Shown here: positions 11,372-36,191 of the stretch, in pieces
Layout of the letters: each line of letters begins with the position of its first letter
Numbering within the stretch: the first letter of the stretch is position 1
From: a phage
Sequence record: PZ386972.1
DNA: 64,000 bases
Reading direction: 5' to 3' (one strand)
Notes under the pieces: model-generated
The model's database searches: none
What the model was told of the DNA's origin: nothing
What the model saw: only the letters and a program-made list of their open reading frames with translations
Made by a program: the position numbers and the translations under genes

Positions 11372-11614
11372 TTACGATTCCTTGAGCAAAGAAGCAAGTT
11401 CAGCATAGACTTTATCTAACTCAAAGCCGATGCGAAGAGATACGTTAGTTTTCCGTTGTTTAAGTAACCACTCGGATATGTTAGGGATGCCAGCTAATCT
11501 ATGTGGTACCACCCTACATAGCTTTTCCGAAGTGTCGTAAACAGGAACTTTACGTTCTTTTACTGGGAACTTCCTTGTTTCCCATTTTTTATTCTTCACT
11601 GTCATTTCTAGCAC
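11372..11614 (-). CDS. hypothetical protein (80 aa)
   Basis: ORF track. Confidence 0.4.
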   Translation of the reverse strand: MLEMTVKNKKWETRKFPVKERKVPVYDTSEKLCRVVPHRLAGIPNISEWLLKQRKTNVSLRIGFELDKVYAELASLLKES

Positions 11615-14456
11615 CTAGCTCTGCCATTGCTTCATCATGCATATGTTTCTCCTCATCAGTCATAAACTTATATGGAATTGGCATACACTCGATTTTACAA
11701 TAAGTTCTGTACCAGTCTACAATATTCTCCGTGTTCATATCCTTACCAATACCCATCATACCAAGATACATTCTTGCATATTTTGGGTTAGCACTCTGAC
11801 CTGTTTTAAGGAAGAAATCTTTCTTTTTACCTTTCAAAGCTTCTATGAATGGTTTGATAGTGACATTTGAACACTTCTTAATATCCTCCCAGAACATCTC
11901 GTGCATCTTATGAAAGAATGCAGCTCTATCATTCGGTTTATCTTTGATATATTGTTCAACATGCTCAACCGTTACATCTTTAATAGACTCAAGATGATAA
12001 TAGCGAACAAGAAGTAGTTTAGCTTCATACGCATCTGCATGGCGGGGGGCACAATAATCAGGAGTTGAGTACAAAATGGCTTTGATTCGCTCTTCTGTAT
12101 ACTCTTTACCTGCACCTTCGATAGTTCCCCAGCTTTCACTGAAAATATCAATAGTTGCACCCTGATCAAGCAAGTAATAACGTAAAGTACTAGTATAGTT
12201 CCTAGACTCCAGCTCCCTGCGACGTGCGTATAATTGCTGTGCTAACTCCAGCCAACCCTCATCAATGTTATATTGTTCAGAACCTGCGGAAAATCCACTC
12301 GTAGATTTATCAATAAAATAATAAATGTTCTGAGCGCCACGGTCGCGCCTGATTGCTTGAAAACGCATGTTTGGCGCTTGGTTACTAGTTCTAGTAATAA
12401 CGAATACGTTATCAAAATAGTTGAAGTCAACACCACTCGTTACGGATGGACTACATAATAAGCAATCAATTTGTTGGTCAATTAGCTCATTAGTTGTGTA
12501 ATCCAGAATACGTCGAATATCCACATCAGACGTAGAGTTTGAGTGGATTTCCTTAACTAACGCACCCGTATTACGACGCAATGCCATGCCCTTCTCATTC
12601 AGTTCATCCGGACCACAGTCAGATACTAGGATAGATTTCTCACCCATCTCTAGGGAAGTCTGAAGTGCAACCCAAATACTGGATTCATCAGGGAACTCAT
12701 AAGCATGAGCTTTTGACAGCATTTTACGATGATGATTATAAAATGCAACCGGTTTATCAAACTCAATCAAAGAACCATATGCTTCAATTGTTTCTGCACT
12801 AATATCCCCATCAGATAATATAATGATTTTTGCAGTTGCAAGAATATCCCGAAGAACCTGAATGCACTCGCGACGTTGTTTAACAACCGGGGCGAATAAT
12901 AGGTCATTCATTACTGCATCACATTCATCAATAAAGATTGCATCAATTTGACCAATAAAACTCTTGAACTTATGCAAAGAGTGAATAGTTGTGGACATAC
13001 GGTCAATAGCACCACGCTTAAAATTAAGCATATCTACAGACTTATCATATTGTCCTGCGCTAAATTTCTTAGCGTTTGAAGATACCAGCGCTCTAGTATT
13101 TGTAACTGCTAAGAAATTACCTTTAATAACTCCTGAATCTAACCAACGCACAACCGCCGTGGTTTTACCTGTACCTAGACTTGCTTTTACAAAAGTCATA
13201 TAACCTTCTGGCGGTACAGTATTTAATTTCAAAAAGTTATCAGTTTCTAGGGAATTAGTTTCTAGCTTTTTAAGTGGAATACCTTTTAAAACATCAGGTA
13301 TATCACGTTTAGAATTATTAACAAACGCTTTCAGAGCCTGTTTACGACCGTTATTAAAGTAATCTTGAATATTACGACTATTATCTTTAGTTGCAATATA
13401 TTCTGATAAGGCTGGACGGATTTCTTTTTCTAGCCATGCAAAATCAACACCATCCTCTAAAGCTCTGTGATAGAGTTTAGGTATGATACGTAGATACACT
13501 CCATCCTCAGCTTCTTCTAGTTCGCTGATAGTTTCCTCTACTTTATCAGAGGCAGCTTTTTTACCTTTAATTTGATCGAGTAAAGAGTAAAACTCCTCCT
13601 TAAACTCACCTCTAGTTGTTTCATAGTCAACCAGATTATTAGGTAAATTTACTTTAGAACCCTTAACAAATACCAGACGTGAAGCACCCTCCGCCTTAAA
13701 CGGATCTACTATACCATCAGTAAATAACGGATCTGCAAAATAATGGAGCTGTACGGAAGAGTAATAAGCTAAGTCGGCAATATCAAAGCCATACTTTTGT
13801 CTACTACTTTCGTTGATAGATGTAAATAAGAATTTGATTTGACCCTGAGTTACTTTAACATTAGATTCTAGTATTAGGTGCATTCGGATACCTGGTTTTA
13901 GCCCAGCCGAAGACGATGCATGAGCGATAAACCCTGCATCGAGAGGAAACATGTCCTCACTAATACTATTTAACATTCTAATAATATGTCGAGCCATGCC
14001 AACAAGATCAAACTTGTTACAACCACCTGTATCTACAATACCATCCACGTCCATTGCAATTATATGACTTGGATTAGATACATTAAAGTTGCCCTTCTTA
14101 CGCCGCACATTATTTTTAGGTGCAAGACATCGACCTCGTACCGCAACGATATGAGGATCAGACGTTAAACGTCTCATAAGAGGGAGCATTTCTACTAGGG
14201 TTTGAGGATCAACTTCATCAATTACATCAAACTTGAAGGGCATTGAAGCTGGTTTACCTTCAGAATGCTTTGAGGAAAATCTTTTAGCAAAAAGATAGTC
14301 TTCTGCTTTAACTTCTCGCCAAATGCCTGTGGCTAAATCGCGATGAAATCCTGCATGACCTTGTAGGATTGAGAACACAACAATACTCCTGTGTTGGAAA
14401 TGAAATAAGTTTTCTTTAGGACTATTCAGAAAGAATAGAACAACTGTTACTGTCAA
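11589..14456 (-). CDS. large helicase-like protein with Walker A/B motifs, possible origin-binding or replication helicase
   Basis: 955 aa; Walker A SLGTGKTT; Walker B IFIDECD; embedded in the replication gene block. Confidence 0.55.
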   Translation of the reverse strand: MTVTVVLFFLNSPKENLFHFQHRSIVVFSILQGHAGFHRDLATGIWREVKAEDYLFAKRFSSKHSEGKPASMPFKFDVIDEVDPQTLVEMLPLMRRLTSDPHIVAVRGRCLAPKNNVRRKKGNFNVSNPSHIIAMDVDGIVDTGGCNKFDLVGMARHIIRMLNSISEDMFPLDAGFIAHASSSAGLKPGIRMHLILESNVKVTQGQIKFLFTSINESSRQKYGFDIADLAYYSSVQLHYFADPLFTDGIVDPFKAEGASRLVFVKGSKVNLPNNLVDYETTRGEFKEEFYSLLDQIKGKKAASDKVEETISELEEAEDGVYLRIIPKLYHRALEDGVDFAWLEKEIRPALSEYIATKDNSRNIQDYFNNGRKQALKAFVNNSKRDIPDVLKGIPLKKLETNSLETDNFLKLNTVPPEGYMTFVKASLGTGKTTAVVRWLDSGVIKGNFLAVTNTRALVSSNAKKFSAGQYDKSVDMLNFKRGAIDRMSTTIHSLHKFKSFIGQIDAIFIDECDAVMNDLLFAPVVKQRRECIQVLRDILATAKIIILSDGDISAETIEAYGSLIEFDKPVAFYNHHRKMLSKAHAYEFPDESSIWVALQTSLEMGEKSILVSDCGPDELNEKGMALRRNTGALVKEIHSNSTSDVDIRRILDYTTNELIDQQIDCLLCSPSVTSGVDFNYFDNVFVITRTSNQAPNMRFQAIRRDRGAQNIYYFIDKSTSGFSAGSEQYNIDEGWLELAQQLYARRRELESRNYTSTLRYYLLDQGATIDIFSESWGTIEGAGKEYTEERIKAILYSTPDYCAPRHADAYEAKLLLVRYYHLESIKDVTVEHVEQYIKDKPNDRAAFFHKMHEMFWEDIKKCSNVTIKPFIEALKGKKKDFFLKTGQSANPKYARMYLGMMGIGKDMNTENIVDWYRTYCKIECMPIPYKFMTDEEKHMHDEAMAELGARNDSEE

Positions 14457-14877
14457 TTTCTCAACAAATTAATTGCAAATACTGAAGTGGGGTGGCAACT
14501 TCCACTTTCACGCTGCGCTGCTGCTTTGCTATATCGCACAAATCCTTGAGGATGGCCGCTAAGCCAGATTTGCTCACCTAATGCTTCATATACTAGCTCA
14601 TACTAGATGCAATATAACTTACAGAATCACGTCTCGGAGTTTTTCACTCCTCCCGTCTCACTTCACAACCACCTCTATCTAGGTTGCTTCGAGGCCTTAC
14701 CAGGGTTCCTACGGGACGCAGATCGCTAAGTATTCTATTAACTATTTGTTTAAAAACTAACACGTAACAGTTAAAACAACCCTTAATGTGGCAGCCTAAC
14801 TGTTCCGTATCGCGGATTGTAAACAAGAAAAATTAGCAAAATCAATTTTTACTAATGTCTCTCAATTCAATATAAAT

Positions 14878-14906
14878 ATTATACCAAGATTTTGGGCATC
14901 ATGCAA
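14878..14906 (-). promoter_or_regulatory. early promoter (minus strand), about 420 nt upstream of the 955-aa gene
   Basis: Plus strand ATTATA 14878-14883 and ATGCAA 14901-14906 (minus-strand TTGCAT, 17 bp, TATAAT). Confidence 0.5.
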
Positions 14907-14945
14907 GTAAAATTTTCCGGATGGTGCTATCATTGGTCTTAAGTA

Positions 14946-14975
14946 CGGATAAAACCGAGCCAAAATGACTCGGTA
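14946..14975 (-). terminator. rho-independent terminator (minus strand)
   Basis: Minus-strand hairpin CCGAGTCATTTTGGCTCGG followed by TTTTAT. Confidence 0.5.
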
Positions 14976-14997
14976 ATCAGAGTTCAGCTAATAAAAA

Positions 14998-15390
14998 TCA
15001 TTCATCATTTAATCCTGGAACATAGATCCCAACACGATTTAATTGTTCTTTAGCTTCTGCGAGAATATCTGGAGTGTACTCCCAAATATCGTCTTCCACC
15101 TGTAAAAGATGGGAAGAACAACCATCATGCGGCACACGACATATGGCCAAACCACGTGGATGGAACAAAGAGAAATTTAGGGCAACAATTAAACCCATAG
15201 CAGACAACTCATTCCAATCCAACTCCCATTCCCCCGCGTAGCCGGATAGGAAAACACCAACACAGGGATCATCTATTTGCTGCTCCGGAAAAGTGAAGGA
15301 GGCTTGTCTTACCCCCAACCAACGTTGTAGCAGCTTCTCCGCACGTTTCACCAAACTAGGATCAATCTGACGCCAATATACTTGTTCCAT
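14998..15390 (-). CDS. hypothetical protein, tandem paralog A (130 aa)
   Basis: Shares WxELxxMGLxxALNxxLFxP and C-terminal PGL motifs with the adjacent 15400..15828 ORF. Confidence 0.5.
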   Translation of the reverse strand: MEQVYWRQIDPSLVKRAEKLLQRWLGVRQASFTFPEQQIDDPCVGVFLSGYAGEWELDWNELSAMGLIVALNFSLFHPRGLAICRVPHDGCSSHLLQVEDDIWEYTPDILAEAKEQLNRVGIYVPGLNDE

Positions 15391-15399
15391 TCTGCCTCC

Positions 15400-15828
15400 T
15401 TAAGCAGTTAAACCTGGGATCATATACCCGAAACGTCGAAGTTTCTGAATCCCATCATTTACTTCTTCCGGTGAGTAAGACCAACCGTAACGTTCATTAA
15501 CCTGAAAACCAGGAGATTCACTAGTTTTATAGTTAACAACAAGGCGATGCTTAGCAGGCATAAACAGCTTATAGTTTAACGCAAAAACTAAGCCCATTTC
15601 ATCTAACTCTTTCCAGCCGACAATTTCTTCAAGACCCTCCTCTACCTGAACAATTAAACCAATACAGGGAGCCTCATCAATATCATCTTTAAAAGCAAAG
15701 GAGATTTCGTTATTCTCACACCATATTTTCAAAGAGTTAATAGCCTCATTATATAGGCTAGCTGGGAGAGTACGCCAAAAGTTAACCAAAATTGGGTTAG
15801 CTTCTTTAGAGAATACATTATTGAACAT
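15400..15828 (-). CDS. hypothetical protein, tandem paralog B (142 aa)
   Basis: Paralogous to 14998..15390. Confidence 0.5.
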   Translation of the reverse strand: MFNNVFSKEANPILVNFWRTLPASLYNEAINSLKIWCENNEISFAFKDDIDEAPCIGLIVQVEEGLEEIVGWKELDEMGLVFALNYKLFMPAKHRLVVNYKTSESPGFQVNERYGWSYSPEEVNDGIQKLRRFGYMIPGLTA

Positions 15829-15830
15829 AT

Positions 15831-16337
15831 TTACACCTTAAATTGCTGTAAGGATTTACACATTTCAAGATCCGGACTAAATTCTAGCATATAGCTAACA
15901 GCTTTTAAATCTTGAAGATTTATCCCAGTCCTACCGTTGACTATAACCGTTGGATACTGATACATCATAGCACCCGCATCATCAAGCACACACCAATGTT
16001 TGAGCTTATGCTTTTCAACGAAGCGAAGAACAGAATTACCCCTAGATAATCCACCTCCAGTAAAATCCGTTGTACCAAGAAAGCGATCGATAAGACCTAA
16101 TCCGGTCATAATCTGAACGTTCTCCATCTCATTTCTAACAGAGAACCAAGATGATACCCCAACAATCATTATTGGGGAAGGACGAATAAAGTCCTGAAAA
16201 GCCTTGAGAAGTGGTTTGAAAACCCAGTCACTTCCAAAGAAAATCTTTTCATCATCAGGTGCATGATGGTGGGAGATGCTCGAATTGAGCACCCCATCAA
16301 TATCTAGAAAAATAATTGGAGTATTACTTATTTCCAT
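15831..16337 (-). CDS. HAD-superfamily phosphatase-like protein
   Basis: 168 aa; HAD motif I IIFLDIDGVLNS; C-terminal DD motif. Confidence 0.5.
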   Translation of the reverse strand: MEISNTPIIFLDIDGVLNSSISHHHAPDDEKIFFGSDWVFKPLLKAFQDFIRPSPIMIVGVSSWFSVRNEMENVQIMTGLGLIDRFLGTTDFTGGGLSRGNSVLRFVEKHKLKHWCVLDDAGAMMYQYPTVIVNGRTGINLQDLKAVSYMLEFSPDLEMCKSLQQFKV

Positions 16338-16506
16338 TTTTGTTCCTTTCTAAGAACGTATCATACTCAACCGTATCAACATATATAACACCATAGTCAT
16401 CGGATTTATAGTCCATTTCCCACAGCTCACAGCGATAGCACCAACTACCATCAGCCCATACAAATATATCATCGGGATGTGTATAAACAGATTTAACTAT
16501 GGACAT
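16324..16506 (-). CDS. hypothetical small protein (60 aa)
   Basis: ORF track; overlapping-stop packing. Confidence 0.3.
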   Translation of the reverse strand: MSIVKSVYTHPDDIFVWADGSWCYRCELWEMDYKSDDYGVIYVDTVEYDTFLERNKNGNK

Positions 16507-16682
16507 ACCTGTTTCTCCTCATCTCCAGAGGAGAACCACATATTATCCGTAGTATAGATAATTTTATATGTGTATCCCAACCGTTTTCTTACACTAGGAA
16601 ACCTGTAGGCAAACCTATAACACCAAGTGCCAGACTCAGTTATAAAAATATCCCATTCATTATTTCTTGCTTCTCGACACAT
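16497..16682 (-). CDS. hypothetical small protein (61 aa)
   Basis: ORF track. Confidence 0.3.
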   Translation of the reverse strand: MCREARNNEWDIFITESGTWCYRFAYRFPSVRKRLGYTYKIIYTTDNMWFSSGDEEKQVCP

Positions 16683-17478
16683 AAGGTCTACCCTCTAAAT
16701 GAGCTTCTACACGAGCAATAAAATCAGGATCACTGAAAGCATCTACCGCACCCTTACTCCAATAAGGGATACTACGTTCTTCCAGCTGGTACATCTCACT
16801 ACGAGTCATACCCTGATAGCCTGGCTCCGCTGCTAGGGCACTATCATAGTAGTTAACTACCATAAATTTCGCAGCAGTCCTATTAAGAACAGGAAATAAT
16901 TCCCAGTAGAAGTTAATTACTTGGTTAGAGCAACCAACCACAACGATCATATCTTGGCTGGTAATACCATCAAAAACATTGTACATTTCTGCATATGCTG
17001 GAGCATGCTCTCCAAAGAAGATTACATTAGGTTTAACCCATTTATAATCATCTGGATCAATAGAAGTATATCCTACATCAATAACCAGTTTATTGCTACT
17101 ATTGTAGCTATCAGCTACAACAACCTCTTTTAAATATCCGTGAATGTGCAGAATGTCACTATGTGGAACGCCAGCACGCTCAATAAGGTCATCGACGTTG
17201 GTAGTCAAGTTTACTACTTGACCTGGATATTGTTTATACCATTCACCAATACGCAAATGCGCAAGATTGGGTTCAACAGTTTTTAGCTCTTCACGACGCT
17301 TGTTGTAAAACATATGGGTTTTATGATAAAAATTACCACGAAAGGCATGAATATTACATACTTCTTCTAGATCATAATCATCCCACAATGCTTTACCACT
17401 AGCAGTATCAGTACGAAAAGCTCGTACACCACTTTCAACACTCAAACCTGCACCGCTAATAATAATTAATCTACGCAT
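16660..17478 (-). CDS. Sir2 (sirtuin)-like NAD-binding protein
   Basis: 272 aa; N-terminal GAGLSVESGVRAFR matches the sirtuin Rossmann signature GAGxSxxSGIPxFR. Confidence 0.5.
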   Translation of the reverse strand: MRRLIIISGAGLSVESGVRAFRTDTASGKALWDDYDLEEVCNIHAFRGNFYHKTHMFYNKRREELKTVEPNLAHLRIGEWYKQYPGQVVNLTTNVDDLIERAGVPHSDILHIHGYLKEVVVADSYNSSNKLVIDVGYTSIDPDDYKWVKPNVIFFGEHAPAYAEMYNVFDGITSQDMIVVVGCSNQVINFYWELFPVLNRTAAKFMVVNYYDSALAAEPGYQGMTRSEMYQLEERSIPYWSKGAVDAFSDPDFIARVEAHLEGRPYVSRSKK

Positions 17479-17692
17479 TTTTCACCTGTTCTCTGAAGTT
17501 TTGCCCAATACTGTCTAATAGCTCAGCTAATTCTTTATTGCCTTTCTCCGTTAAGGTATTAGCAATAACTTCTAGCATAGTAGCGCAGGATTCAACACCG
17601 TCCTTATAGCCAGCTTCCCATTGCTGCATTAATGCGTTTTCCAAAGCAGCGTTTAAACCCTTATCTGGTAGCATCGGCTTCGAGAATGCCAT
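17471..17692 (-). CDS. hypothetical protein (73 aa)
   Basis: ORF track. Confidence 0.4.
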   Translation of the reverse strand: MAFSKPMLPDKGLNAALENALMQQWEAGYKDGVESCATMLEVIANTLTEKGNKELAELLDSIGQNFREQVKNA

Positions 17693-17879
17693 AAAGTTTC
17701 TCCTCTAGTTCCATAACACGATTTTCATAAGAGGCACGCAACTTTTCAATTGCCAGCGCACGCACTGTAACCTCATTAGAGTTAATAGCTAATTGGGCCA
17801 GATCTTCTGTTTCCATACGTCCGTTGTAAATTAAGCGATATTTAAGATGTTTTACATTCTTCATAGTTTCTCCTCTCAA
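17661..17879 (-). CDS. hypothetical protein (72 aa)
   Basis: ORF track; first gene after promoter 17892-17920. Confidence 0.4.
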   Translation of the reverse strand: MRGETMKNVKHLKYRLIYNGRMETEDLAQLAINSNEVTVRALAIEKLRASYENRVMELEEKLYGILEADATR

Positions 17880-17891
17880 ATTTATAAATCA

Positions 17892-17920
17892 ATTATACAT
17901 AAGTTTTAGCTCGAAAGCAA
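17892..17920 (-). promoter_or_regulatory. early promoter (minus strand)
   Basis: Plus strand ATTATA 17892-17897 and AAGCAA 17915-17920. Confidence 0.55.
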
Positions 17921-17962
17921 ATAAAATAAAAGCCAGGTCGACTAGCAACCCGGCTGATTAGC

Positions 17963-19837
17963 TTATTTAGCTCGAATATCCTGATGTTTCACCCTACCCA
18001 TAACTTCATGTTGTTTGCCGGGGTTAAATGGACGAGCACCCGGATTTCCAAGATACCCACAAACTCGACGAGTTACTTCAAGAGTTTCTGGGTCATGATT
18101 ACCACAGATAGGGCACTTAAATCCATCTTCGGATGCTATTGTTTCACCTAAGAATCCACATTTACCACAAGAATCTACTGGAGTATTAATACCGAAGTAA
18201 TGAACCTTACTAGCAGCATAATTAATAACCCATTCGAGTGCATCTGGGAATCGTTTCATATCCGGTAGTTCTACATAGGAAATACACCCACCAGAAGCAA
18301 TCGGAGTAAAGTTAGATTCATAATCAAATTTCACGTTAGGAGCAACTTTACGTTCTACATCAAGGTGATGCGAGTTAGTATAGTATCCTTTGGACAGAAT
18401 ATCTTCATGCTCCGGGAAATATTCACGATCTAGACGACAAAAACGGTCACATAGGGACTCTGATGGTGTAGCATACAGGCTATAACCTAACTTAGTTTCT
18501 TCCTTCTTCTGATCTACCCTATCCCGCATGTACTGCAGTACACGCTGAACAAACTTGATGCAGGTCTCGGACATTGTGTCTATATCTTTGCCAAACATGA
18601 ACTGTAGCATTTCATGGCAACCAATATACCCTAGAGATACAGAAGCACGGTTATAGAAATGATCGAATACGTATTCATCAGGCTCCAAGCGCAGTCCAAA
18701 GGCTCCTGACATATAGAGGATGGGTGCAGCTTTAGCTTGAATGTATTTTAAGCGATCAACTCTCCACTCCAATGCTTTTAACGCTGTATCCACACGTAGC
18801 TCAAGCAAATCAAAGAATAGGTCAATATTTCCTTCAGCTTCGATAGCAATTCTAGGCAAGTTTACAGAAACAACACCTAAGTTATTACGACCGGCAGTTT
18901 CACCATCTTCTGTAGCAGCTAGGAATGAACGGCAGCCCATAGAAACTTTGTAGTCTCCAGTAACTTCTACAACTTTGTCATAGCTGATATAATCTGGATA
19001 CATACGTTCAGCAGTACATTTCATAGCTAACTTCTTGATGTCATAATTAACATCTCCTGGTTTCATATTTACGCCATCACGAAGCACAAATACCAGTTTC
19101 GGGAAGATAGCTGTACGTTTATTGATACCTAAACCATCCATGCGTACTTTCAGTATTGCTTTCTGTACTAGACGTGCTTCCCAAGAAGTTCCTAGACCAA
19201 AACCAAAGGTAATAAATGGACTCTGACCATTAGAGTTGAACATCGTATTGATTTCATACTCTAGACCCTGACAAGCATCATAGACTTCTTTTTCAGTCAT
19301 CTCCGTAGCCATTACTGATGCTTTGGCTTCATCCTTAGTCCAACGTTTTGCAAAGGCATGATTTTTGTCATAGGATTTACGAACATAAGGAGCTAATACC
19401 TCATCTAATCGGTCTACAGAAGTACCACCATACTGATGGGAGCTAACCTGTGTGATAATCTGAGCTGTAATAGCCGCCGCAGTAGTAATAGAGTTTGGAG
19501 TACTAATTTCAGCATTACCAACCTTCATACCATTCTTCAACATATCTTCCAGAGCTACCAGACAACAATTAGTCATGCCTAATGCAGCATAATCAGCATC
19601 ATGGAAATGAATATCCCCAATCATATGAGCATTTCGAATCTGAATTGGCATTTCTTCTAGAATCAGATACTTACTCAATTCACCTGCAAGCATATCCCTC
19701 TGTGTAGGGAAACGTTCTGAGGGTTTATTGGCATTATTAAACAGCAGCTCTTCATCTGCTGACCCTTCGATAATCTCTTTGCAGTTTCTAATTAACGCCT
19801 GCATTTCTTTATACTTTAGTTCTTCATTGCGATTCAT
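17963..19837 (-). CDS. nrdD: anaerobic ribonucleoside-triphosphate reductase (class III, glycyl radical)
   Basis: 624 aa; C-terminal zinc ribbon CGKCGF...CPICG and glycyl-radical motif RRVCGYLG. Confidence 0.85.
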   Translation of the reverse strand: MNRNEELKYKEMQALIRNCKEIIEGSADEELLFNNANKPSERFPTQRDMLAGELSKYLILEEMPIQIRNAHMIGDIHFHDADYAALGMTNCCLVALEDMLKNGMKVGNAEISTPNSITTAAAITAQIITQVSSHQYGGTSVDRLDEVLAPYVRKSYDKNHAFAKRWTKDEAKASVMATEMTEKEVYDACQGLEYEINTMFNSNGQSPFITFGFGLGTSWEARLVQKAILKVRMDGLGINKRTAIFPKLVFVLRDGVNMKPGDVNYDIKKLAMKCTAERMYPDYISYDKVVEVTGDYKVSMGCRSFLAATEDGETAGRNNLGVVSVNLPRIAIEAEGNIDLFFDLLELRVDTALKALEWRVDRLKYIQAKAAPILYMSGAFGLRLEPDEYVFDHFYNRASVSLGYIGCHEMLQFMFGKDIDTMSETCIKFVQRVLQYMRDRVDQKKEETKLGYSLYATPSESLCDRFCRLDREYFPEHEDILSKGYYTNSHHLDVERKVAPNVKFDYESNFTPIASGGCISYVELPDMKRFPDALEWVINYAASKVHYFGINTPVDSCGKCGFLGETIASEDGFKCPICGNHDPETLEVTRRVCGYLGNPGARPFNPGKQHEVMGRVKHQDIRAK

Positions 19838-19866
19838 TATACTCTCCTTCTCTAACTAAGACTACT

Positions 19867-19895
19867 ATTATAACTCATTCGAGGGCGGATGTCAA
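19867..19895 (-). promoter_or_regulatory. consensus sigma70-type promoter for nrdD (TTGACA, 17 bp, TATAAT)
   Basis: Plus strand ATTATA 19867-19872 and TGTCAA 19890-19895. Confidence 0.6.
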
Positions 19896-19946
19896 CAATA
19901 TTTTACTATAAAGTTCTGTAACATGATCTGAGTCAAAAAATTTTAT

Positions 19947-19975
19947 TTGCCAATTTCTATTAAAAATTGTATAAT
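19947..19975 (+). promoter_or_regulatory. early promoter (TTGCCA, 17 bp, TATAAT) followed by palindromic CGTGCACG element
   Basis: -35 at 19947-19952, -10 at 19970-19975. Confidence 0.5.
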
Positions 19976-20087
19976 CACGCACTCGTGCACGCGATATAAA
20001 ATGATTATCTAGTATCACACATCTCACGTTAAAAGCAAGCAAATTTTTTATTTAAATGCAATATCATAGGCTTATTTAAAATTGTAG

Positions 20088-20116
20088 TTGCTTTTTACTG
20101 TATATATTGGTATAAT
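20088..20116 (+). promoter_or_regulatory. early promoter (TTGCTT, 17 bp, TATAAT)
   Basis: -35 at 20088-20093, -10 at 20111-20116. Confidence 0.55.
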
Positions 20117-20189
20117 ATATTTGTAAGTTGATAAACAAGATCTTTTTGTTGATCCTCTGTTAGCGAAGTACACTATAGGAGTGTTATTT

Positions 20190-20942
20190 ATGGGAAAAGC
20201 ACGTCAAAAAAGAGAGAACCGCAATGGTTCAAGAAAGCGTGGCAACAAATATGAGAATAACGTAATTCAGGCTGATTTTTCTAATGATTACGCTAACCCA
20301 GTTGCTAAATCCCTAGTAGGTAAAAACCGCGAGCAAAAATCATATATCAATATGATCAAGAACAACACAGTGACTGTGGGTATCGGTGAGCCAGGTACTG
20401 GTAAAACCTTTATTCCGTCCGTTCTTGCAGCTCAGGAACTCGTAGACATTCACTCAGATATTGAGCAAGTGATCCTCGTACGTCCTAATGAACCTCTAGG
20501 TAAGTCTCTTGGTATGCTTCCTGGTGATCTAGCAGAAAAGCTAGAGCCTTGGTTGGAGCCAATAGCTGATGGTATGAAATGGGCCATCGGCGAACATGCC
20601 TATAAGGGATATGTCGAACGTCAGAAAATTAAATTTTTGGCTATCGAACATGCTCGTGGCAGAACTTTCAACAACTCCTATGTAATTGTCGATGAAGCTC
20701 AGAATATTTCCGTTGAGGCAATGATTTGTCTCCTAACTCGTGTAGGACAAGACTGCCGTTTAATTATCTGCGGAGATATAGCTCAGAAAGACATTAAAGG
20801 TGACTCAGGTCTAGCACTCCTTATGGAAGTCTATGAGAAATACGAAAATGCCCCATTCTCAATGATCGAATTGATTGATAACGTTCGTTCTGTTGAGTCT
20901 AAAGCATTCTATGACATCTTTAAAGACATGGGGAAGGTGTAA
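20190..20942 (+). CDS. phoH: PhoH-like ATPase
   Basis: Walker A GEPGTGKTF; Walker B VIVDEAQN; start set to ATG 20190 with AGGAG RBS. Confidence 0.75.
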   Translation: MGKARQKRENRNGSRKRGNKYENNVIQADFSNDYANPVAKSLVGKNREQKSYINMIKNNTVTVGIGEPGTGKTFIPSVLAAQELVDIHSDIEQVILVRPNEPLGKSLGMLPGDLAEKLEPWLEPIADGMKWAIGEHAYKGYVERQKIKFLAIEHARGRTFNNSYVIVDEAQNISVEAMICLLTRVGQDCRLIICGDIAQKDIKGDSGLALLMEVYEKYENAPFSMIELIDNVRSVESKAFYDIFKDMGKV

Positions 20943-20943
20943 T

Positions 20944-21165
20944 ATGGGAAACGTCGTTCATCTGAGCCGTAAAACTAAAATACATCGTACTTCACTGAGT
21001 GCTGCTAATATGATTACACGTAAGGAAGGGGAAGAAAGTCCTAAGACAACCCTAGCGTGGAAAATTGTAACCTCAAATCCAAATAAACCATTCAATTATA
21101 ACGAGCTGAGCACCTCCATAGATATTCTATTAAAAGAAGTAGCTAGAGCTAAAGTAATTGAATAA
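20944..21165 (+). CDS. hypothetical protein (73 aa)
   Basis: ORF track 20875..21165, start moved to ATG 20944 immediately after the phoH stop. Confidence 0.4.
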   Translation: MGNVVHLSRKTKIHRTSLSAANMITRKEGEESPKTTLAWKIVTSNPNKPFNYNELSTSIDILLKEVARAKVIE

Positions 21166-27655: not shown

Positions 27656-27940
27656 ATGCGAATTTATAACTCAAATTCATTAGGATTTAAACCATTGAGA
27701 AAACGTGCACAATCACCTCGTCAAATAAGAAAGGCTAATATTGGTGAGCCAGAAACACGTCTTCCACCTCCTCCAGAACAACGTTTAGTTTATCTGGACG
27801 AAGAATTAGCTGAACGCGAAAGAAAAGCTCAAGAAGAGATTGAGCGTAAGAAAATGTGTACTGCCCCAGCCTACTCCAAAGGGGCTTATCAGTATATCTA
27901 TACAGCCGAAGAGGCCAAAGATGCGGGGCGTAAAAAATGA
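27656..27940 (+). CDS. hypothetical protein (94 aa)
   Basis: ORF track. Confidence 0.5.
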   Translation: MRIYNSNSLGFKPLRKRAQSPRQIRKANIGEPETRLPPPPEQRLVYLDEELAERERKAQEEIERKKMCTAPAYSKGAYQYIYTAEEAKDAGRKK

Positions 27941-28386
27941 AGATTACTGAATTTAAAGGTGCTTATAGTTTCTTATCTAACTTTTATTTATCACCAATTA
28001 CTTTCGAATATCTGAATGAAATATGGCATGCTGATACTGTAGAACATGCTTTTCAGGCTATGAAATCCGACCAAAAAGATGATGTAGCTCATGTACTACG
28101 CTCCCTAAATGCAGGAGTTGCTAAACGTAGAGGACGTAAATTAATTCTACGCTCTGACTGGGATAAGGTAAAAGATGATGTAATGTTAGAGCTTTTACGG
28201 TTAAAGTTTGCAATCCCTGATTTGAGAGACAAACTGTTAGCAACAGAAAATGCAACTTTGATTGAAGGAAATACCTGGGGGGATACATATTGGGGTGTTT
28301 GCCGAGGCATCGGGGATAATACTTTAGGAGTTCTTTTGATGCAGGTAAGGTCTGAAATTAAAAGAAGCTTACAGTTAATAAATTAA
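27937..28386 (+). CDS. NADAR (YbiA/DUF1768-like) domain protein
   Basis: 149 aa; YSFLSNFYLSPI...EHAFQAMK matches the NADAR signature. Confidence 0.6.
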   Translation: MKITEFKGAYSFLSNFYLSPITFEYLNEIWHADTVEHAFQAMKSDQKDDVAHVLRSLNAGVAKRRGRKLILRSDWDKVKDDVMLELLRLKFAIPDLRDKLLATENATLIEGNTWGDTYWGVCRGIGDNTLGVLLMQVRSEIKRSLQLIN

Positions 28387-33931: not shown

Positions 33932-34006
33932 CGGGGTGTAGTCTAAGGGAGAGGCAGGAGTCTTCTAAATTCCTTTATGCAGGTTCGAATCCTGTCACCT
34001 CGGCCA
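33932..34006 (+). tRNA. tRNA-Arg (anticodon UCU)
   Basis: Acceptor CGGGGTG/CACCTCG; D-stem; anticodon loop CTTCTAA; T-arm GCAGGTTCGAATCCTGT; encoded CCA. Confidence 0.6.
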
Positions 34007-34040
34007 ATTTTATTAACTGTAACTAAAACAAAGGAAATAT

Positions 34041-34988
34041 ATGTTTAATACTAAAAATATGAAAGAACTGACTTCTGAGCAGAAAGTAATTCGTACTATT
34101 AAACGTTGGGGTATTGGTGCTGTAGTTGGTTTAGCAGGCTTGATTCTAGCCTTTAATTCATATACTATTGTTTCTGATGGTACGGTTAAAACTCAAACAT
34201 TCCTGGGTAAAGTAGATCCTAATCCAGTATTGCCGGGTTTCCATCTTGTAAACCCGTTTGCATCTTTCGATACTTTTAGTACAAAAGATATTGCTGTAAA
34301 ATTAGATAAACTTCAGGTTCCTAGTCAGGATAAGTTTAAATCCACTGTTGACCTGACTGTTATGTTGCAATTTGATGGTTCTAAGGCACCGATTAACCGT
34401 ATTAACGCAGGTACTCAGGATCAGGCACTAGACAAGTATGTAACTGAAAAATTACTGTCTACTATTCGTGAGTTTGGTAAGTCTGTACCTAAAGCACAAG
34501 ATTTGTTTGATGCTAAAATTCAGGCTCAATTGCAAACTGCAATTCAACAGGAAGTTGAAGAGTATGCGCGCCCATATGGTTACACAGTTAAGCAGGTATT
34601 CCTTCAGGATATTACCTTGCCGCCAGTAATCATGGAACAGGTACAGAATACCAAAGTTCGTGAAGAGCAAGTTAATGCTGCGAAAGCTGAACTTGCTCGC
34701 GTTGAACAGGAAGCACAGCAAAAAGTTAAACAAGCAGAAGCAGATCGTGAAGCTCGTAACAACCAAGCTATTGCTAATGAACGTGACGCAGATGCTAAAC
34801 TGTACGCAGCTAAGAAAGAAGCTGAAGCTAACGCCGCATTGCAACGTACCATTACTCCTGAAATGATTCGTTGGAAACAACTGGAAGTTGAAATGATCCG
34901 TGCTCAGAAGTATCAAGGTGGTGTACCTCAGACTGTGGTAGGTACTGGCTACGATGGTCAAATGATCATGGATATGCGTAATAAATAA
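34041..34988 (+). CDS. SPFH/band-7 (stomatin/prohibitin-like) membrane protein
   Basis: 315 aa; N-terminal TM helix; SPFH-like core (GFHLVNPF...); C-terminal Ala/Glu/Lys-rich coiled coil. Confidence 0.55.
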   Translation: MFNTKNMKELTSEQKVIRTIKRWGIGAVVGLAGLILAFNSYTIVSDGTVKTQTFLGKVDPNPVLPGFHLVNPFASFDTFSTKDIAVKLDKLQVPSQDKFKSTVDLTVMLQFDGSKAPINRINAGTQDQALDKYVTEKLLSTIREFGKSVPKAQDLFDAKIQAQLQTAIQQEVEEYARPYGYTVKQVFLQDITLPPVIMEQVQNTKVREEQVNAAKAELARVEQEAQQKVKQAEADREARNNQAIANERDADAKLYAAKKEAEANAALQRTITPEMIRWKQLEVEMIRAQKYQGGVPQTVVGTGYDGQMIMDMRNK

Positions 34989-35013
34989 TACCCGCATGTA
35001 ACATCTGAAGTAA

Positions 35014-35046
35014 GCCCTGCGTTTCCTGGAGAGCGCAGGGCTTTTC
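35014..35046 (+). terminator. rho-independent terminator
   Basis: Hairpin GCCCTGCGTTTCCTGGAGAGCGCAGGGC followed by TTTTCT. Confidence 0.6.
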
Positions 35047-35084
35047 TATATAATGTAATTATAAAACTAACTAGGAGATTAAAC

Positions 35085-35603
35085 ATGGGTGTTGATGAAT
35101 TAACACAGCATCTTCTATCTAGAGGATTTGATGCGGATAAATATCATTGCTGGTTAAGTCCGGAAGGATGGCTAACAGTCCCGTTGTATGATTTCTCTGG
35201 GATGTTGAGGGGCTATCAAACTTATAATCCTTCTGCTCCAAAAGGTCATGGTAAGTGTCCCTTTGAAGCTAAATATTTTACCTATTCTACTACCCAGTGT
35301 GTATGGGGATTAGAAACTCTCAATGGAGATGAAAAAGTAGTATTGATCGCTGAATCTGTATTTAAGGCAGTTGCGTTACATAATGCTGGTTATCCAGCCC
35401 TAGCAATGTTGGGTTCTTCTCCAGGAAAAGCGTTATTAAAGCAACTGAAATTATTACCTTTTAAATTGGTAGCTGTCGGGGATAACGATCCTGCGGGTGA
35501 AAAATTTGCTAGAAAATTAAACGGCTTTGTTTCTCCTGTAGATGTGGATGAGATGTCTACAGAAAACTTGAAAAATTTTCTTGCTATGAAGCTAAATTTC
35601 TAA
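35085..35603 (+). CDS. TOPRIM-like domain protein
   Basis: 172 aa; VVLIAESVFKAVAL...VAVGDNDPAGEKFA resembles a TOPRIM fold. Confidence 0.4.
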   Translation: MGVDELTQHLLSRGFDADKYHCWLSPEGWLTVPLYDFSGMLRGYQTYNPSAPKGHGKCPFEAKYFTYSTTQCVWGLETLNGDEKVVLIAESVFKAVALHNAGYPALAMLGSSPGKALLKQLKLLPFKLVAVGDNDPAGEKFARKLNGFVSPVDVDEMSTENLKNFLAMKLNF

Positions 35604-35609
35604 TATAAT
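35581..35609 (+). promoter_or_regulatory. early promoter embedded in the 3' end of the 35085..35603 CDS
   Basis: TTGCTA 35581-35586, TATAAT 35604-35609. Confidence 0.55.
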
Positions 35610-35624
35610 ATATCTTATAAATTC

Positions 35625-35713
35625 GGAAGAATAGCATAACGGTATTGCAGCAGATTGCTAATCTGTCGGTTTGAAATATAGCCTTGTGGGTTCGATTCCC
35701 ACTTCTTCCACCA
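35625..35713 (+). tRNA. tRNA-Ser (anticodon GCU), long variable arm
   Basis: Acceptor GGAAGAA/TTCTTCC; anticodon loop TTGCTAA; T-arm GTGGGTTCGATTCCCAC; CCA encoded; 89 nt. Confidence 0.6.
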
Positions 35714-35719
35714 AATTCT

Positions 35720-35797
35720 GGTTCTCAAGCTCATATGGTATGAGCACCCGGCTCATAACCGGAAGGTACGTAGGTTCGAATCCTCGGGGAGCCACCA
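35720..35797 (+). tRNA. tRNA with CAU anticodon (Met, fMet or Ile2)
   Basis: Acceptor GGTTCTC/GGGAGCC; D-arm GCTC/GAGC; anticodon loop CTCATAA; weak T-stem; CCA. Confidence 0.5.
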
Positions 35798-35816
35798 AAT
35801 TAAATAAGGACAACTA

Positions 35817-36005
35817 ATGGAATTATTCATAGTTTCTGTTAAATTTGCACAAGATAGAGAACGTTCGGATGAGTTTAAACAAGGGTACAGACTAGTAAAG
35901 GCTACATCTGAACTCCATGCTATGGACAAAGTAGTAGACTATATGTATAATGTAGAAGATGTTTACTACGTCAATGCTTTAGAAGCCTCAAAAGTAATTA
36001 ACTAG
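35817..36005 (+). CDS. hypothetical protein (62 aa)
   Basis: ORF track. Confidence 0.4.
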   Translation: MELFIVSVKFAQDRERSDEFKQGYRLVKATSELHAMDKVVDYMYNVEDVYYVNALEASKVIN

Positions 36006-36014
36006 GGAGACTAT

Positions 36015-36191
36015 ATGTCTAAGTTTCAAGAACTCAAGCAAGAGCTAGAAGAGTGTGCCTGCCCTGAGTGTAGGGGAATTGGTGAAAGTTCTGATGCAGA
36101 AGCAGGAGATACTTTTTGCAATATCTGGGTTTGCCCAAATTGCAGTGGTACAGGTATTAATCCTAACTGCGGTATTTCCCCTAGATATTGA
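36015..36191 (+). CDS. small Cys-rich zinc-ribbon-like protein (58 aa), below the ORF-track cutoff
   Basis: CPECRG...CNIWVCPNCSG Cys pairs; GGGAGA RBS. Confidence 0.35.
   Translation: MSKFQELKQELEECACPECRGIGESSDAEAGDTFCNIWVCPNCSGTGINPNCGISPRY

What the first reader, a model, noticed from the sequence alone, without database searches (positions are those of the whole stretch)
14998..17879. Minus-strand module: Sir2-like protein, HAD phosphatase, two small ORFs and tandem paralogs
Promoter 17892-17920 drives two small ORFs, a Sir2-like NAD-binding protein (GAGLSVESGVRAFR), two tiny ORFs, a HAD-motif phosphatase and two paralogous proteins of unknown function. A phage-encoded sirtuin-like enzyme beside a phosphatase suggests NAD+ or ADP-ribose metabolism, possibly countering NAD-depleting host defences or modifying host proteins.
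Basis: inference. Interest (0 to 1): 0.55.

Follow-up and report, generated by a model that had tools for sequence, protein, structure and literature searches.

The report
T5 phage sirtuin–phosphatase early operon
This is the long-annotated early gene block T5.100–T5.107 of a T5-like phage: a zinc-less CobB-type sirtuin, an RNA-repair-type HAD phosphatase and small phage-only proteins, whose function has been guessed in print but never tested.

Summary
Window 14951-17920 (minus strand) is one tightly packed operon of eight genes under purifying selection. The window is a Tequintavirus, and the block matches T5 genes T5.101-T5.107 (no counterpart of T5.100 was found; the second small ORF is absent from T5).

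The 272-aa protein is a real sirtuin: Pfam SIR2 1.9e-24, AF2 pLDDT 90.6, best fold match E. coli CobB. It keeps the NAD loop, N94/D96, catalytic H113 and the class-III Y58/R61 pair. It has no zinc-binding cysteines, and this holds for its whole clade, which is almost entirely viral.

The phosphatase belongs to Pfam HAD_SAK_2. The "two tiny ORFs" are themselves paralogs (phrog_5116). The tandem paralogs are DUF7415 proteins, a rare phage-only family with no solved structural relative.

Nothing here is new. T5's Sir2 has been annotated since the genome was sequenced (Wang et al. 2005). Zinc loss in phage sirtuins was noted in 2016. The sirtuin–HAD neighbourhood was described in 2022 as a predicted KptA/Tpt1-like RNA-repair system. 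I found no experiments.

My additions:
- In T5-like phages the constant partners of Sir2 are the DUF7415 genes; HAD is optional.
- HAD relatives sit beside RNA ligase in Aeromonas phages.
- T5-likes lack any RNA ligase.

Function remains open: RNA-end processing (~0.4) versus protein deacylation (~0.3). A role in restoring NAD+ is unsupported.

The parts
17892..17920 (-). sigma-70-type early promoter: TTGCTT (17920-17915), 17-nt spacer, TATAAT (17897-17892)
   Evidence: Read from the sequence. The consensus scan did not list it because the -35 hexamer matches only 3 of 6. T5's record annotates a promoter at the equivalent place. It sits just after the nrdD terminator hairpin 17955-17931.
17661..17864 (-). 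orfA, 67 aa, unknown function (phrog_5236; T5.101 homolog)
   Evidence: ATG 17864 with a GAGAGGAG ribosome-binding site. phrog_5236 4.9e-46. 85-89% identical to the T5 ORF (89% by tblastn; 85% by MAFFT). dN/dS 0.05-0.15.
17471..17692 (-). orfB, 73 aa, unknown function (phrog_5827); accessory, absent from T5 itself
   Evidence: phrog_5827 8.8e-31. Present in L001 and L002 but has no hit in T5. Only 36% identical in Epseptimavirus-type loci, with dN/dS about 0.4.
16660..17478 (-). Zinc-less class-III (CobB/SIRT5-like) sirtuin, 272 aa (T5.102 homolog)
   Evidence: Pfam SIR2 1.9e-24, 87 bits against a cutoff of 24. phrog_2162 3e-120. Closest PDB sequence is E. coli CobB 1S5P, 2.6e-17. AF2 pLDDT 90.6; Foldseek top hit CobB, TM 0.83, followed by SIRT5. 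Invariant across the clade: G9-A10-G11, S13, S16, G17, F21, R22, Y58, R61, R62, N94, D96, H113, G114, F154, F155, E157. Only two Cys (C41, C183), neither in the small domain.
16497..16682 (-). small protein 1, 61 aa (phrog_5116; T5.103 homolog)
   Evidence: phrog_5116 1.8e-22. Paralog of the next ORF. Copy number of this family varies between 0, 1 and 2 among T5-like loci.
16324..16506 (-). small protein 2, 60 aa (phrog_5116; T5.104 homolog)
   Evidence: phrog_5116 6.1e-30. Relatives lie directly after Sir2 even in Sugarland-type phages, phage Eos and L009. dN/dS 0.03 against T5.
15831..16337 (-). HAD-superfamily phosphatase of the HAD_SAK_2 ('Swiss Army Knife RNA repair') family, 168 aa (T5.105 homolog)
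   Evidence: Pfam PF18143 4e-20, 73 bits against a cutoff of 27.5. Motif I D12xD14, motif II S62/S63, a D91-T93-GGG-R99 block, and motif IV D119-D120 are all invariant in the family alignment. Mis-named 'Sir2' through phrog_18062 and RefSeq.
15400..15828 (-). DUF7415 protein a, 142 aa (T5.106 homolog)
14998..15390 (-). DUF7415 protein b, 130 aa, paralog of a (T5.107 homolog)
   Evidence: Pfam PF24187 5.8e-31. 31-32% identical to protein a, E about 1e-16. dN/dS 0.13-0.19.
14951..14974 (-). weak terminator-like hairpin closing the operon (ACCGAG, 9-nt loop, CTCGGT, TTTT)
   Evidence: Read from the sequence. The scan missed it because the loop exceeds 8 nt. T5 annotates a putative rho-independent terminator at the equivalent position.

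Best explanation
Identity (near certain). This is the conserved early operon of T5-like phages (T5.101-T5.107), transcribed from a host-type promoter just after nrdD. Its enzymatic core is a catalytically intact sirtuin derived from the CobB/SIRT5 class. The zinc ribbon has been replaced by a cysteine-free beta-hairpin module.

Function (inferred, about 0.4). The sirtuin and its partners are a nucleic-acid (RNA) end-processing module, not a general protein deacetylase.

Proposed mechanism, following Iyer et al. 2022:
1. The sirtuin uses NAD+ as Tpt1/KptA does. An anionic oxygen of an RNA 2'-phosphate attacks C1'' of NAD+ and releases nicotinamide. The 2'-phosphate would sit where class-III sirtuins hold the succinyl carboxylate, at Y58/R61.
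2. H113 then activates the ribose 2''-OH to expel the RNA as 2'-OH plus ADP-ribose 1'',2''-cyclic phosphate.
3. The HAD_SAK_2 phosphatase either removes terminal 3'/2' phosphates from the broken RNA or dephosphorylates the ADP-ribose-phosphate by-product.
4. The two DUF7415 proteins, always next to Sir2 in this phage family, would act as substrate-binding or specificity partners.

The biological purpose would be to undo damage by host anticodon nucleases or RNA toxins early in infection.

Shown here: gene structure, fold, motifs, conservation and gene contexts. Inferred: every step of the chemistry and the identity of the substrate.
For: Identity:
- 96-99% DNA identity to Tequintavirus records.
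- Gene-for-gene match to T5.101-T5.107.

Catalytic competence:
- Pfam SIR2 hit.
- CobB alignment with HG, TQNID-like and GAGxS motifs.
- Residues invariant across the clade.
- Confident CobB/SIRT5-like model.
- Y58 and R61 align with CobB Y92 and R95 (Y92 numbering confirmed by the 6rxs title).

RNA context of the same sirtuin clade (56-61% identical):
- In Vequintavirus FV3 the gene lies 0.4 kb downstream of RNA ligase 1, near a phosphoesterase.
- In a Klebsiella Mydovirus-like phage the order is RNA ligase, small ATPase, Sir2, DNA ligase, MazG.
- About 14 further loci repeat this pattern.
- Distant Sir2 genes of Streptomyces phages lie about 4.5 kb from an RNA ligase.

HAD:
- Pfam family named for RNA-repair proteins.
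- Its homolog in Aeromonas phage phiAS5 lies two genes upstream of RNA ligase 1 and about 4 kb from a tRNA nucleotidyltransferase, with no Sir2 present.

DUF7415:
- Adjacent to Sir2 in every T5-like locus examined (about 40).
- Still adjacent when the order is inverted and nrdD is absent (L008).
- Its C-terminal module is fused elsewhere to ASCH-like/DUF3850 and thymidylate-kinase-like domains.

Published proposal: Iyer et al. 2022 name T5-like phage SP15 as the prototype of the sirtuin + SAK-HAD neighbourhood.
Against: - No sirtuin has been shown to act on an RNA phosphate. The idea rests on gene neighbourhood alone, and phage early regions cluster nucleic-acid genes anyway.
- T5-likes have no RNA ligase or polynucleotide kinase. 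There is no Rnl1 homolog in the window. Rnl1 tblastn hits only 18 Salmonella phage records, against about 271 Salmonella T5-likes that carry the HAD. None is annotated in T5 between 1 and 80 kb. The pathway would therefore be incomplete without host enzymes.
- The residues that bind the acyl-lysine and peptide backbone in deacylases (V152, F154, F155, E157) are invariant, which fits a protein substrate.
- HAD is absent from Sugarland-type phages, phage Eos, L008 and L059.
- Several other Sir2-clade contexts show no RNA-repair genes: Justusliebigvirus, Vibrio nt-1, L042 and L052.
Confidence: 0.4

Rival explanations
1. The sirtuin is a CobB-like protein lysine deacylase (deacetylase or desuccinylase). 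Made early in infection, it would strip acyl groups from host or phage proteins, for example reactivating acetyl-CoA synthetase or the translation and transcription machinery of acetylated stationary-phase cells. The HAD and DUF7415 genes would be unrelated neighbours.
For: - Closest sequence and fold relatives are the deacylases CobB and SIRT5.
- All catalytic and acyl-lysine or peptide-binding positions are invariant: H113, N94/D96, V152, FFGE, and Y58/R61 of the desuccinylase class.
- The nearest cellular relative, a Rhodoblastus MAG at 37% identity, is a normal zinc-containing CobB-like protein, so the clade descends from deacylases.
- Skliros et al. 2016 proposed this for Vibrio phages and listed T5.
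- It is the default database annotation.
Against: - Loss of all four zinc ligands in the whole clade removes a module that forms part of the substrate cleft in characterised deacylases.
- Scores fall far below the NCBIfam CobB cutoffs (100 against 243 bits).
- There is repeated linkage to RNA ligase and end-processing genes in other phage families.
- Its constant partners have no link to protein acylation.
- The host already has CobB.
Confidence: 0.3
2. One reading: an NAD+/ADP-ribose metabolism module that counters NAD-depleting defences such as Thoeris, DSR or SIR2-HerA. It might destroy ADP-ribose-derived signals or recycle ADP-ribose, or it might ADP-ribosylate host proteins.
For: - Sirtuins can ADP-ribosylate, and a phosphatase could act on ADP-ribose phosphates.
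- The operon is early and sits among nucleotide-metabolism genes.
- T5 depends on NAD+ for its ligase (ligA/ligB).
- In one jumbo-phage contig the Sir2 is followed by a nucleoside 2-deoxyribosyltransferase-like gene.
Against: - The enzyme consumes NAD+.
- No NAD+ synthesis or salvage domain is present in any of the eight proteins.
- There is no similarity to defence-type Sir2 NADases or any PADLOC model.
- No Macro, Nudix or NADAR partner lies in the operon.
- Iyer et al. explicitly separate this clade from the ADP-ribosylating, Macro-linked sirtuins.
Confidence: 0.1
3. The genes are only syntenic cargo. Sir2, HAD, the phrog_5116 proteins and DUF7415 are independent accessory genes that sit together because Demerecviridae gene order is conserved. 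DUF7415 may instead relate to anaerobic ribonucleotide reduction.
For: - Accessory content is fluid. HAD is present or absent, the small paralogs occur in 0-2 copies, and orfB is absent from T5.
- Divergence is mosaic: HAD is 89-90% identical to Epseptimavirus-type loci but Sir2 only 61%.
- No non-T5 Sir2 locus carries DUF7415 or HAD.
- In T4-like Klebsiella phages a single-module DUF7415 gene lies exactly between nrdD and nrdG. In T5-likes the block follows nrdD.
Against: - The Sir2-DUF7415 pairing survives inversion of gene order and loss of nrdD in L008.
- It also survives down to about 20% DUF7415 identity, as in phage Eos.
- Overlapping stop and start codons suggest co-translation of the whole block.
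Confidence: 0.2

Closest known systems
Bacteriophage T5 genes T5.101-T5.107 (Sir2-like T5.102; NC_005859 56159-58927)
   Same: Same genes in the same order between nrdD and the replication-origin-binding helicase. Protein identity runs from 85-89% (orfA) to 99% (HAD). The promoter and terminator are annotated at the same places.
   Different: The window has a 73-aa orfB that T5 lacks, and no counterpart of T5.100 was found in it. The closest record overall is Salmonella phage vB_StyS-LmqsSP1, at 98.6%.
E. coli CobB / human SIRT5 (class III sirtuin deacylases)
   Same: Rossmann fold plus small domain, with TM 0.83 to 1S5P. Shared motifs: GAGxSxxSGxRxFR, T(Q/T)N(I/V)D, HG and FGE. The class-specific Tyr/Arg pair is kept (Y58/R61 = CobB Y92/R95).
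   Different: About 25-32% identity. No zinc-binding cysteines anywhere in the small domain. Scores fall far below the NCBIfam CobB cutoffs. The clade is almost entirely viral: only 5 weak loci in 185,579 species genomes, and the best cellular one still has CxxC...CxxC.
Phage 'sirtuin-centred RNA repair' neighbourhoods of Iyer, Burroughs, Anantharaman & Aravind 2022 (type 3, prototype Escherichia phage SP15)
   Same: This is that neighbourhood. SP15 is a T5-like hit of the window (H25), with the sirtuin next to a Swiss-Army-Knife-type HAD phosphatase. I confirmed the type-2 context (RNA ligase, phosphoesterase, kinase-like ATPase, MazG) for 56-61%-identical sirtuins.
   Different: In the passages I read, the paper does not mention DUF7415 or the phrog_5116 proteins. 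In this census these are more constant partners than HAD within Demerecviridae. The proposal is computational only.
Tpt1/KptA RNA 2'-phosphotransferase
   Same: Proposed functional analogue. It is NAD+-consuming and transfers ADP-ribose to an anionic oxygen, followed by attack of the ribose 2''-OH. This is formally parallel to the two steps of sirtuin chemistry (established mechanism of both families; the analogy was drawn).
   Different: The fold is unrelated (ADP-ribosyltransferase fold against sirtuin Rossmann fold). No biochemical evidence exists. T5-likes lack the ligase that would create or need a 2'-phosphate junction.
Defence-system Sir2 NADases (ThsA, DSR1/2, SIR2-HerA, SIR2-pAgo)
   Same: Sir2 superfamily. 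From general knowledge, these also often lack the zinc ribbon.
   Different: No PADLOC model matches. There is no sensor or partner domain. The protein keeps the full deacylase-type motif set, including FGE and Y/R. It is phage-encoded and expressed early.
T4 polynucleotide kinase-phosphatase (HAD-type 3'-phosphatase domain) and Pfam HAD_SAK_2
   Same: DxDxV nucleophile motif and DD motif IV. The family is associated with RNA-end healing. Relatives sit near RNA ligase 1 in Aeromonas T4-like phages.
   Different: Stand-alone 168-aa protein with no kinase domain. No detectable sequence relative in the PDB. The substrate is unknown.

Membership tests
Sirtuin superfamily (Pfam SIR2 PF02146) | Profile match above the curated threshold | tested here: met
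   87 bits against a cutoff of 24, E 1.9e-24, covering profile positions 1-178 of 180.
Sirtuin superfamily | Rossmann-fold NAD domain plus small domain, by structure | tested here: met
   AF2 pLDDT 90.6, pTM 0.89. Foldseek top hits are CobB 1s5p (E 1e-17, TM 0.83), SIRT5 and Sir2Af/Sir2Tm.
Sirtuin superfamily | Catalytic His and the Asn/Asp of the (T/Q)N(I/V)D motif; GAGxS...SGxxxFR NAD loop | tested here: met
   H113-G114 aligns with CobB HG. N94 and D96 lie in TTNVDD. G9-A10-G11, S13, S16, G17, F21 and R22 are invariant in 30 clade members.
Canonical sirtuin deacylases (CobB, Sir2Tm, SIRT1-7) | Four-cysteine zinc ribbon in the small domain | tested here: not met
   Only C41 and C183 are present in the protein. 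No clade member has the Cys ligands between H113 and K149. The nearest cellular relative does have CxxC...CxxC.
Class III sirtuins (CobB/SIRT5) | Tyr-x-x-Arg pair that binds the acidic acyl group (SIRT5 Y102/R105, CobB Y92/R95) | tested here: met
   FYNKRR 57-62. Y58 and R61 align with CobB Y92 and R95 and are invariant in the clade. The role of these residues is taken from the literature, not tested here.
CobB orthologs (NCBIfam equivalogs and subfamily models) | Score above the curated cutoff | tested here: not met
   Best score is 100.3 bits against a cutoff of 243 (NF001753). All seven models fall far below cutoff.
Sirtuin deacylases | NAD+-dependent removal of acyl groups from lysine | not testable with these tools
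   Needs an enzyme assay.
HAD superfamily / HAD_SAK_2 (PF18143) | Profile match above threshold, and the four HAD motifs (DxDx[TV]; S/T; K/R; DD) | tested here: met
   73 bits against a cutoff of 27.5. D12xD14-G-V, S62/S63, R99 (with K109-113 nearby) and D119-D120 are invariant across T5-like, Aeromonas and Proteus phage homologs.
Phage RNA-repair systems (healing plus sealing, as in T4 Pnkp/Rnl1) | An RNA ligase and a 5'-kinase encoded with the end-healing enzymes | tested here: not met
   No Rnl1 homolog in the window. Rnl1 tblastn does not recover T5-likes. None is annotated in T5 between 1 and 80 kb. This feature is met in Vequintavirus and Mydovirus-like relatives.
Tpt1/KptA 2'-phosphotransferases | KptA/ART fold; removal of RNA 2'-phosphate with NAD+ | tested here: not met
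   The fold is sirtuin, not ART, so this is a 'works-like' proposal only. The activity is not testable here.
Defence-associated Sir2 NADases | Match to ThsA, DSR, SIR2-HerA or similar models; fused or adjacent sensor | tested here: not met
   No PADLOC family at E <= 0.1 other than a spurious REase_I hit. The protein is a single domain of 272 aa.
Phage NAD+ reconstitution or salvage pathways (counter-defence) | NAD+-synthesising enzymes (NAMPT/NMNAT-type or ADPR-PP-type) | tested here: not met
   None of the eight proteins matches such a family in Pfam, PHROGs or NCBIfam.
DUF7415 (PF24187) | Profile match above threshold | tested here: met
   107 and 123 bits against a cutoff of 27, with two matched stretches per protein. 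The family has only 58 representatives at E <= 1e-3 among 1.84 billion proteins.
KH (type I) nucleic-acid-binding domains, as a possible fold for the DUF7415 C-terminal module | Significant structural match; GXXG loop | tested here: inconclusive

The most novel reading that the evidence does not exclude
The zinc-less phage sirtuin clade (about 1000 phage genomes) is not a protein deacylase. It is the first sirtuin that works on RNA, using NAD+ either to remove a 2'-phosphate in the manner of Tpt1 or to remove another acidic or acyl mark. In T5-like phages it would work as a complex with the phage-only DUF7415 proteins, which provide nucleic-acid recognition. The module would be a new RNA-repair or counter-defence route against host RNA-targeting immunity.
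Probability: 0.2. Interest if true: 0.75.

Novelty: already known. Interest (0 to 1): 0.3.

Why it matters
As a sequence finding it adds nothing new. The block is present and annotated in hundreds of T5-like genomes, and both functional ideas are already in print.

The underlying question is still open and easy to test. A catalytically intact sirtuin that has lost its zinc module is conserved in roughly a thousand phage genomes across several families. It is kept next to RNA ligases in some families and next to an RNA-repair-type phosphatase and DUF7415 proteins in T5-likes.

If it acts on RNA, that would extend sirtuin chemistry to nucleic acids and add a phage answer to anticodon-nuclease immunity. 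If it is a deacylase, it would be a clear case of a virus rewriting the host acyl-proteome.

T5 is genetically tractable, so knock-outs and simple enzyme assays would decide between these.

Tried and rejected
- **PADLOC scan of all eight proteins:** no defence-type match.
- **NCBIfam:** only sub-threshold CobB hits for the sirtuin, and nothing useful for the others.
- **Rfam E-value scan of 13000-21000:** only a chance DnaX hit.
- **Fold of the 424-nt leader 14457-14880:** unremarkable, z = -2.15.
- **HAD protein and HAD family profile against PDB sequences:** no relatives.
- **The search for related loci with the DUF7415 alignment:** failed, as no stretch was conserved enough.
- **Word-indexed homolog searches for DUF7415:** reached only T5-likes plus four distant members.
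- **T5 record's hint that HAD and DUF7415 are near each other in Aeromonas phage Aeh1:** I checked the related phiAS5 and Proteus Pm5461 loci and found HAD but no DUF7415 or Sir2 nearby.
- **DUF7415 near Sir2 in Vibrio nt-1, Justusliebigvirus and all non-T5 loci:** none found.
- **A DUF7415-NrdD link** (single-module gene between nrdD and nrdG in T4-like Klebsiella phages): not adopted, because L008 keeps DUF7415 plus Sir2 without nrdD.
- **Pfam on neighbours of four other Sir2-clade contigs:** almost nothing informative.
- **Literature searches for experiments on T5 Sir2, T5.102-T5.107 or DUF7415:** none found.

Full report
**What the window is.** The 3.1-kb stretch matches 448 phage records. 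The best is Salmonella phage vB_StyS-LmqsSP1 (Tequintavirus, 98.6% identity), and 115 records lie at 95-99%. The flanking genes are the anaerobic ribonucleotide reductase nrdD (17963-19837) and the replication-origin-binding helicase (11589-14456). This is the arrangement in T5, where the corresponding genes are T5.099 (nrdD), T5.100-T5.107 and T5.108. The finding is therefore the well-known early block of T5-like phages.

**The observation.** All eight minus-strand ORFs are present as described.
- The first ORF most likely starts at ATG 17864, behind a GAGAGGAG ribosome-binding site, giving 67 aa.
- Neighbouring genes overlap by 8-32 nt or are separated by 2-9 nt.
The simple scan missed it only because its -35 hexamer matches 3 of 6. 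T5 annotates a promoter at the same position.
- The operon begins just after the nrdD terminator hairpin at 17955-17931.
- It ends at a weak hairpin plus T-run at 14974-14951, where T5 annotates a putative terminator.
- The seven ORFs with a T5 ortholog give dN/dS of 0.02-0.16 against T5. orfB, which T5 lacks, gives about 0.4 against Epseptimavirus-type loci. All eight are real genes.
- All eight fall in PHROG families.

**The sirtuin.**
- Pfam SIR2 scores 87 bits against a threshold of 24.
- The closest solved sequence is E. coli CobB (1S5P, 2.6e-17), followed by archaeal Sir2 and SIRT5.
- A 30-sequence alignment gave an AlphaFold model with pLDDT 90.6. Its best structural matches are CobB (TM 0.83) and SIRT5.
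- Invariant across the clade are the NAD loop (G9-A10-G11, S13, S16, G17, F21, R22), N94 and D96 of TTNVDD, the catalytic H113-G114, V152, F154-F155 and E157, G182 and S184, and N209.
- Y58 and R61 align with CobB Y92 and R95. These are the pair that marks class III sirtuins and binds the carboxylate of succinyl-lysine (role from the literature).
- The protein has only two cysteines, neither in the small domain. No clade member has the zinc ligands. The model shows beta-hairpins in their place.
- The clade is essentially viral. All 172 significant hits in a 5.8-billion-protein search look phage-borne. It occurs in 995 phage records: T5-likes, Vequintavirinae, Mydovirus-like, Justusliebigvirus, KVP40-like Vibrio phages and jumbo phages.
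- A pattern scan of 185,579 species genomes found only five loci. The best cellular one (37% identity) still carries CxxC...CxxC. Zinc loss is thus a derived, phage-specific state of a CobB-like ancestor.
- The protein scores far below every NCBIfam CobB cutoff and matches no defence-system Sir2 model.

**The other genes.**
- The 168-aa protein is a HAD phosphatase of Pfam family HAD_SAK_2, 'HAD domain in Swiss Army Knife RNA repair proteins'. It has D12xD14, S62/S63, a conserved D91-T93-GGG-R99 block and D119-D120.
- It has no detectable relative among solved structures.
- It is widely mis-annotated as 'Sir2' through phrog_18062 and RefSeq.
- The two 'tiny ORFs' are paralogs (phrog_5116).
- The last two proteins are DUF7415 paralogs, 31-32% identical.
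- DUF7415 is rare: 58 representatives at E <= 1e-3 among 1.84 billion proteins.
- The full two-part architecture is confined to T5-like phages.
- The C-terminal module of about 55 residues (DWNELSxxGLxxxxN...HP) also occurs alone, or fused to DUF3850/ASCH-like or thymidylate-kinase-like domains.

**Context census.** I fetched 59 viral contigs carrying the sirtuin clade, plus annotated records, and searched their ORFs with profiles of each module gene.
- Every T5-like locus (about 40) has Sir2 with one or two DUF7415 genes.
- HAD is present in Tequintavirus and Epseptimavirus types and in L040. It is absent from Sugarland-type Klebsiella phages, phage Eos, L008 and L059.
- The phrog_5116 genes vary between 0, 1 and 2 copies.
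- orfB is missing from T5.
- In L008 the two DUF7415 genes lie upstream of Sir2 and nrdD is absent, yet the trio stays together.
- Outside Demerecviridae, no Sir2 locus has DUF7415 or HAD.
- Vequintavirus and Mydovirus-like phages instead place the sirtuin (56-61% identical) within 0.4-3 kb of RNA ligase 1, a phosphoesterase, a small ATPase, a MazG-like pyrophosphatase and a DNA ligase.
- Other lineages show no such genes.
- Independently, the HAD homolog of Aeromonas phage phiAS5 lies two genes upstream of RNA ligase 1 and about 4 kb from a tRNA nucleotidyltransferase, with no sirtuin nearby.
- T5-likes themselves have no RNA ligase or polynucleotide kinase that I could find.

**Literature.**
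- The T5 record annotates T5.102 as an NAD-dependent deacetylase/ADP-ribosylase by InterPro match.
- Skliros et al. 2016 noted that phage Sir2/CobB proteins lack the zinc site but keep the catalytic and acetyl-lysine residues. They proposed deacetylation of host enzymes such as Acs and listed T5 among the carriers.
- Iyer, Burroughs, Anantharaman and Aravind 2022 defined a distinct viral sirtuin clade. [quoted passage not shown] They proposed that these sirtuins act like KptA to remove RNA 2'-phosphates.
- I found no experimental work on any of these genes.

**How it most likely works.** What is shown is an early operon encoding a catalytically intact, zinc-less class-III-type sirtuin, a HAD phosphatase with a complete active site, and conserved phage-only partners. 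What is inferred is the substrate.

I favour an RNA-end-processing role at about 0.4, for four reasons:
1. The same sirtuin clade is embedded in RNA-ligase clusters in two other phage groups.
2. The HAD family is independently tied to RNA ligase and a CCA-adding enzyme.
3. DUF7415 modules are fused to nucleic-acid- or nucleotide-related domains.
4. Sirtuin chemistry maps neatly onto the Tpt1 reaction, with Y58/R61 placed to hold an anionic group.

The weaknesses are serious:
- There is no precedent for a sirtuin acting on RNA.
- There is no ligase or kinase in T5-likes.
- HAD is dispensable in several T5-like lineages.
- The peptide-binding FGE region is strictly conserved, which suits a protein substrate.

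The main rival, a CobB-like protein deacylase, stands at about 0.3. The possibility that the neighbours are merely syntenic cargo cannot be excluded (about 0.2).

**Verdict.** The feature is already known and annotated, and its neighbourhood has been published.
- The DUF7415 pair, and usually a phrog_5116 protein, rather than HAD, is the constant companion of the sirtuin in Demerecviridae.
- The Y/R pair is invariant in the clade.
- The nearest cellular relatives still bind zinc.
- The HAD family is linked to RNA ligase in Aeromonas phages.
- T5-likes lack an RNA ligase.

Interest is modest as a finding (0.3). The open biochemical question is well posed and cheap to test.

Noticed in passing
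window 14375-14906 (minus strand): A strong promoter, TTGCAT (14906-14901), 17-nt spacer, TGgTATAAT (14886-14878), lies right after the operon's terminator. About 420-500 nt with no convincing ORF follow before the origin-binding helicase gene. T5 has the same gap (59073-59545). There was no Rfam hit, and the RNA fold is only mildly better than shuffles (z = -2.15).
   Followed up: partly
L073 (Klebsiella phage vB_Kpn_K65_evo9) 3474-3707; also hits H253-H257: In T4-like Klebsiella phages a single-module DUF7415 gene (77 aa) sits exactly between nrdD and nrdG, overlapping both. In T5-likes the DUF7415 genes also lie downstream of nrdD. This may point to a link with anaerobic ribonucleotide reduction. 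It is weakened by L008, which keeps DUF7415 and Sir2 without nrdD.
   Followed up: partly
window 15831-16337 and 16660-17478 compared with L047/L048: Divergence is mosaic. HAD is 89-90% identical between this Tequintavirus and Epseptimavirus-type phages, but the adjacent sirtuin is only 61% and orfB 36% identical. This suggests allele replacement or recombination inside the operon.
   Followed up: no
window 15831-16337, 15400-15828, 14998-15390 (database annotations): Annotation errors are propagating. RefSeq and PHROG 18062 call the HAD phosphatase 'Sir2 (NAD-dependent deacetylase)'. Some records call the DUF7415 proteins 'tail tube protein' or 'exonuclease'.
   Followed up: yes
L069 (Aeromonas phage phiAS5) 5980-8290 and 10605-11660: The HAD_SAK_2 homolog lies in a run of thymidylate synthase, HAD, a hypothetical gene, an endonuclease and RNA ligase 1, with a tRNA nucleotidyltransferase about 4 kb downstream. 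This looks like an RNA-repair cluster without any sirtuin.
   Followed up: partly
window 33932-44330 (plus strand): There are 22 tRNA genes in a 10-kb cluster, as in T5. This is relevant because T5-likes may answer tRNA-targeting defences by replacing tRNAs rather than repairing them.
   Followed up: no
L071 (Escherichia phage EmilieFrey) 4459-5813: In Justusliebigvirus the clade sirtuin directly follows a 176-aa gene annotated 'putative aminoacyl-tRNA synthetase'. This is another possible tRNA-related neighbour and was not examined.
   Followed up: no
L075 (T5) 27656-28024, gene T5.056: This gene is annotated 'acetyltransferase-related' through InterPro IPR001150. From memory (not checked here), IPR001150 is the glycine-radical domain, so it may be a GrcA-like spare part relevant to NrdD rather than an acetyltransferase.
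   Followed up: no
P0149 (718 aa): A 'protein' made of about 13 identical 53-residue repeats of a DUF7415 C-terminal fragment. It is almost certainly an assembly artefact in the public collection, not a real architecture.
   Followed up: no
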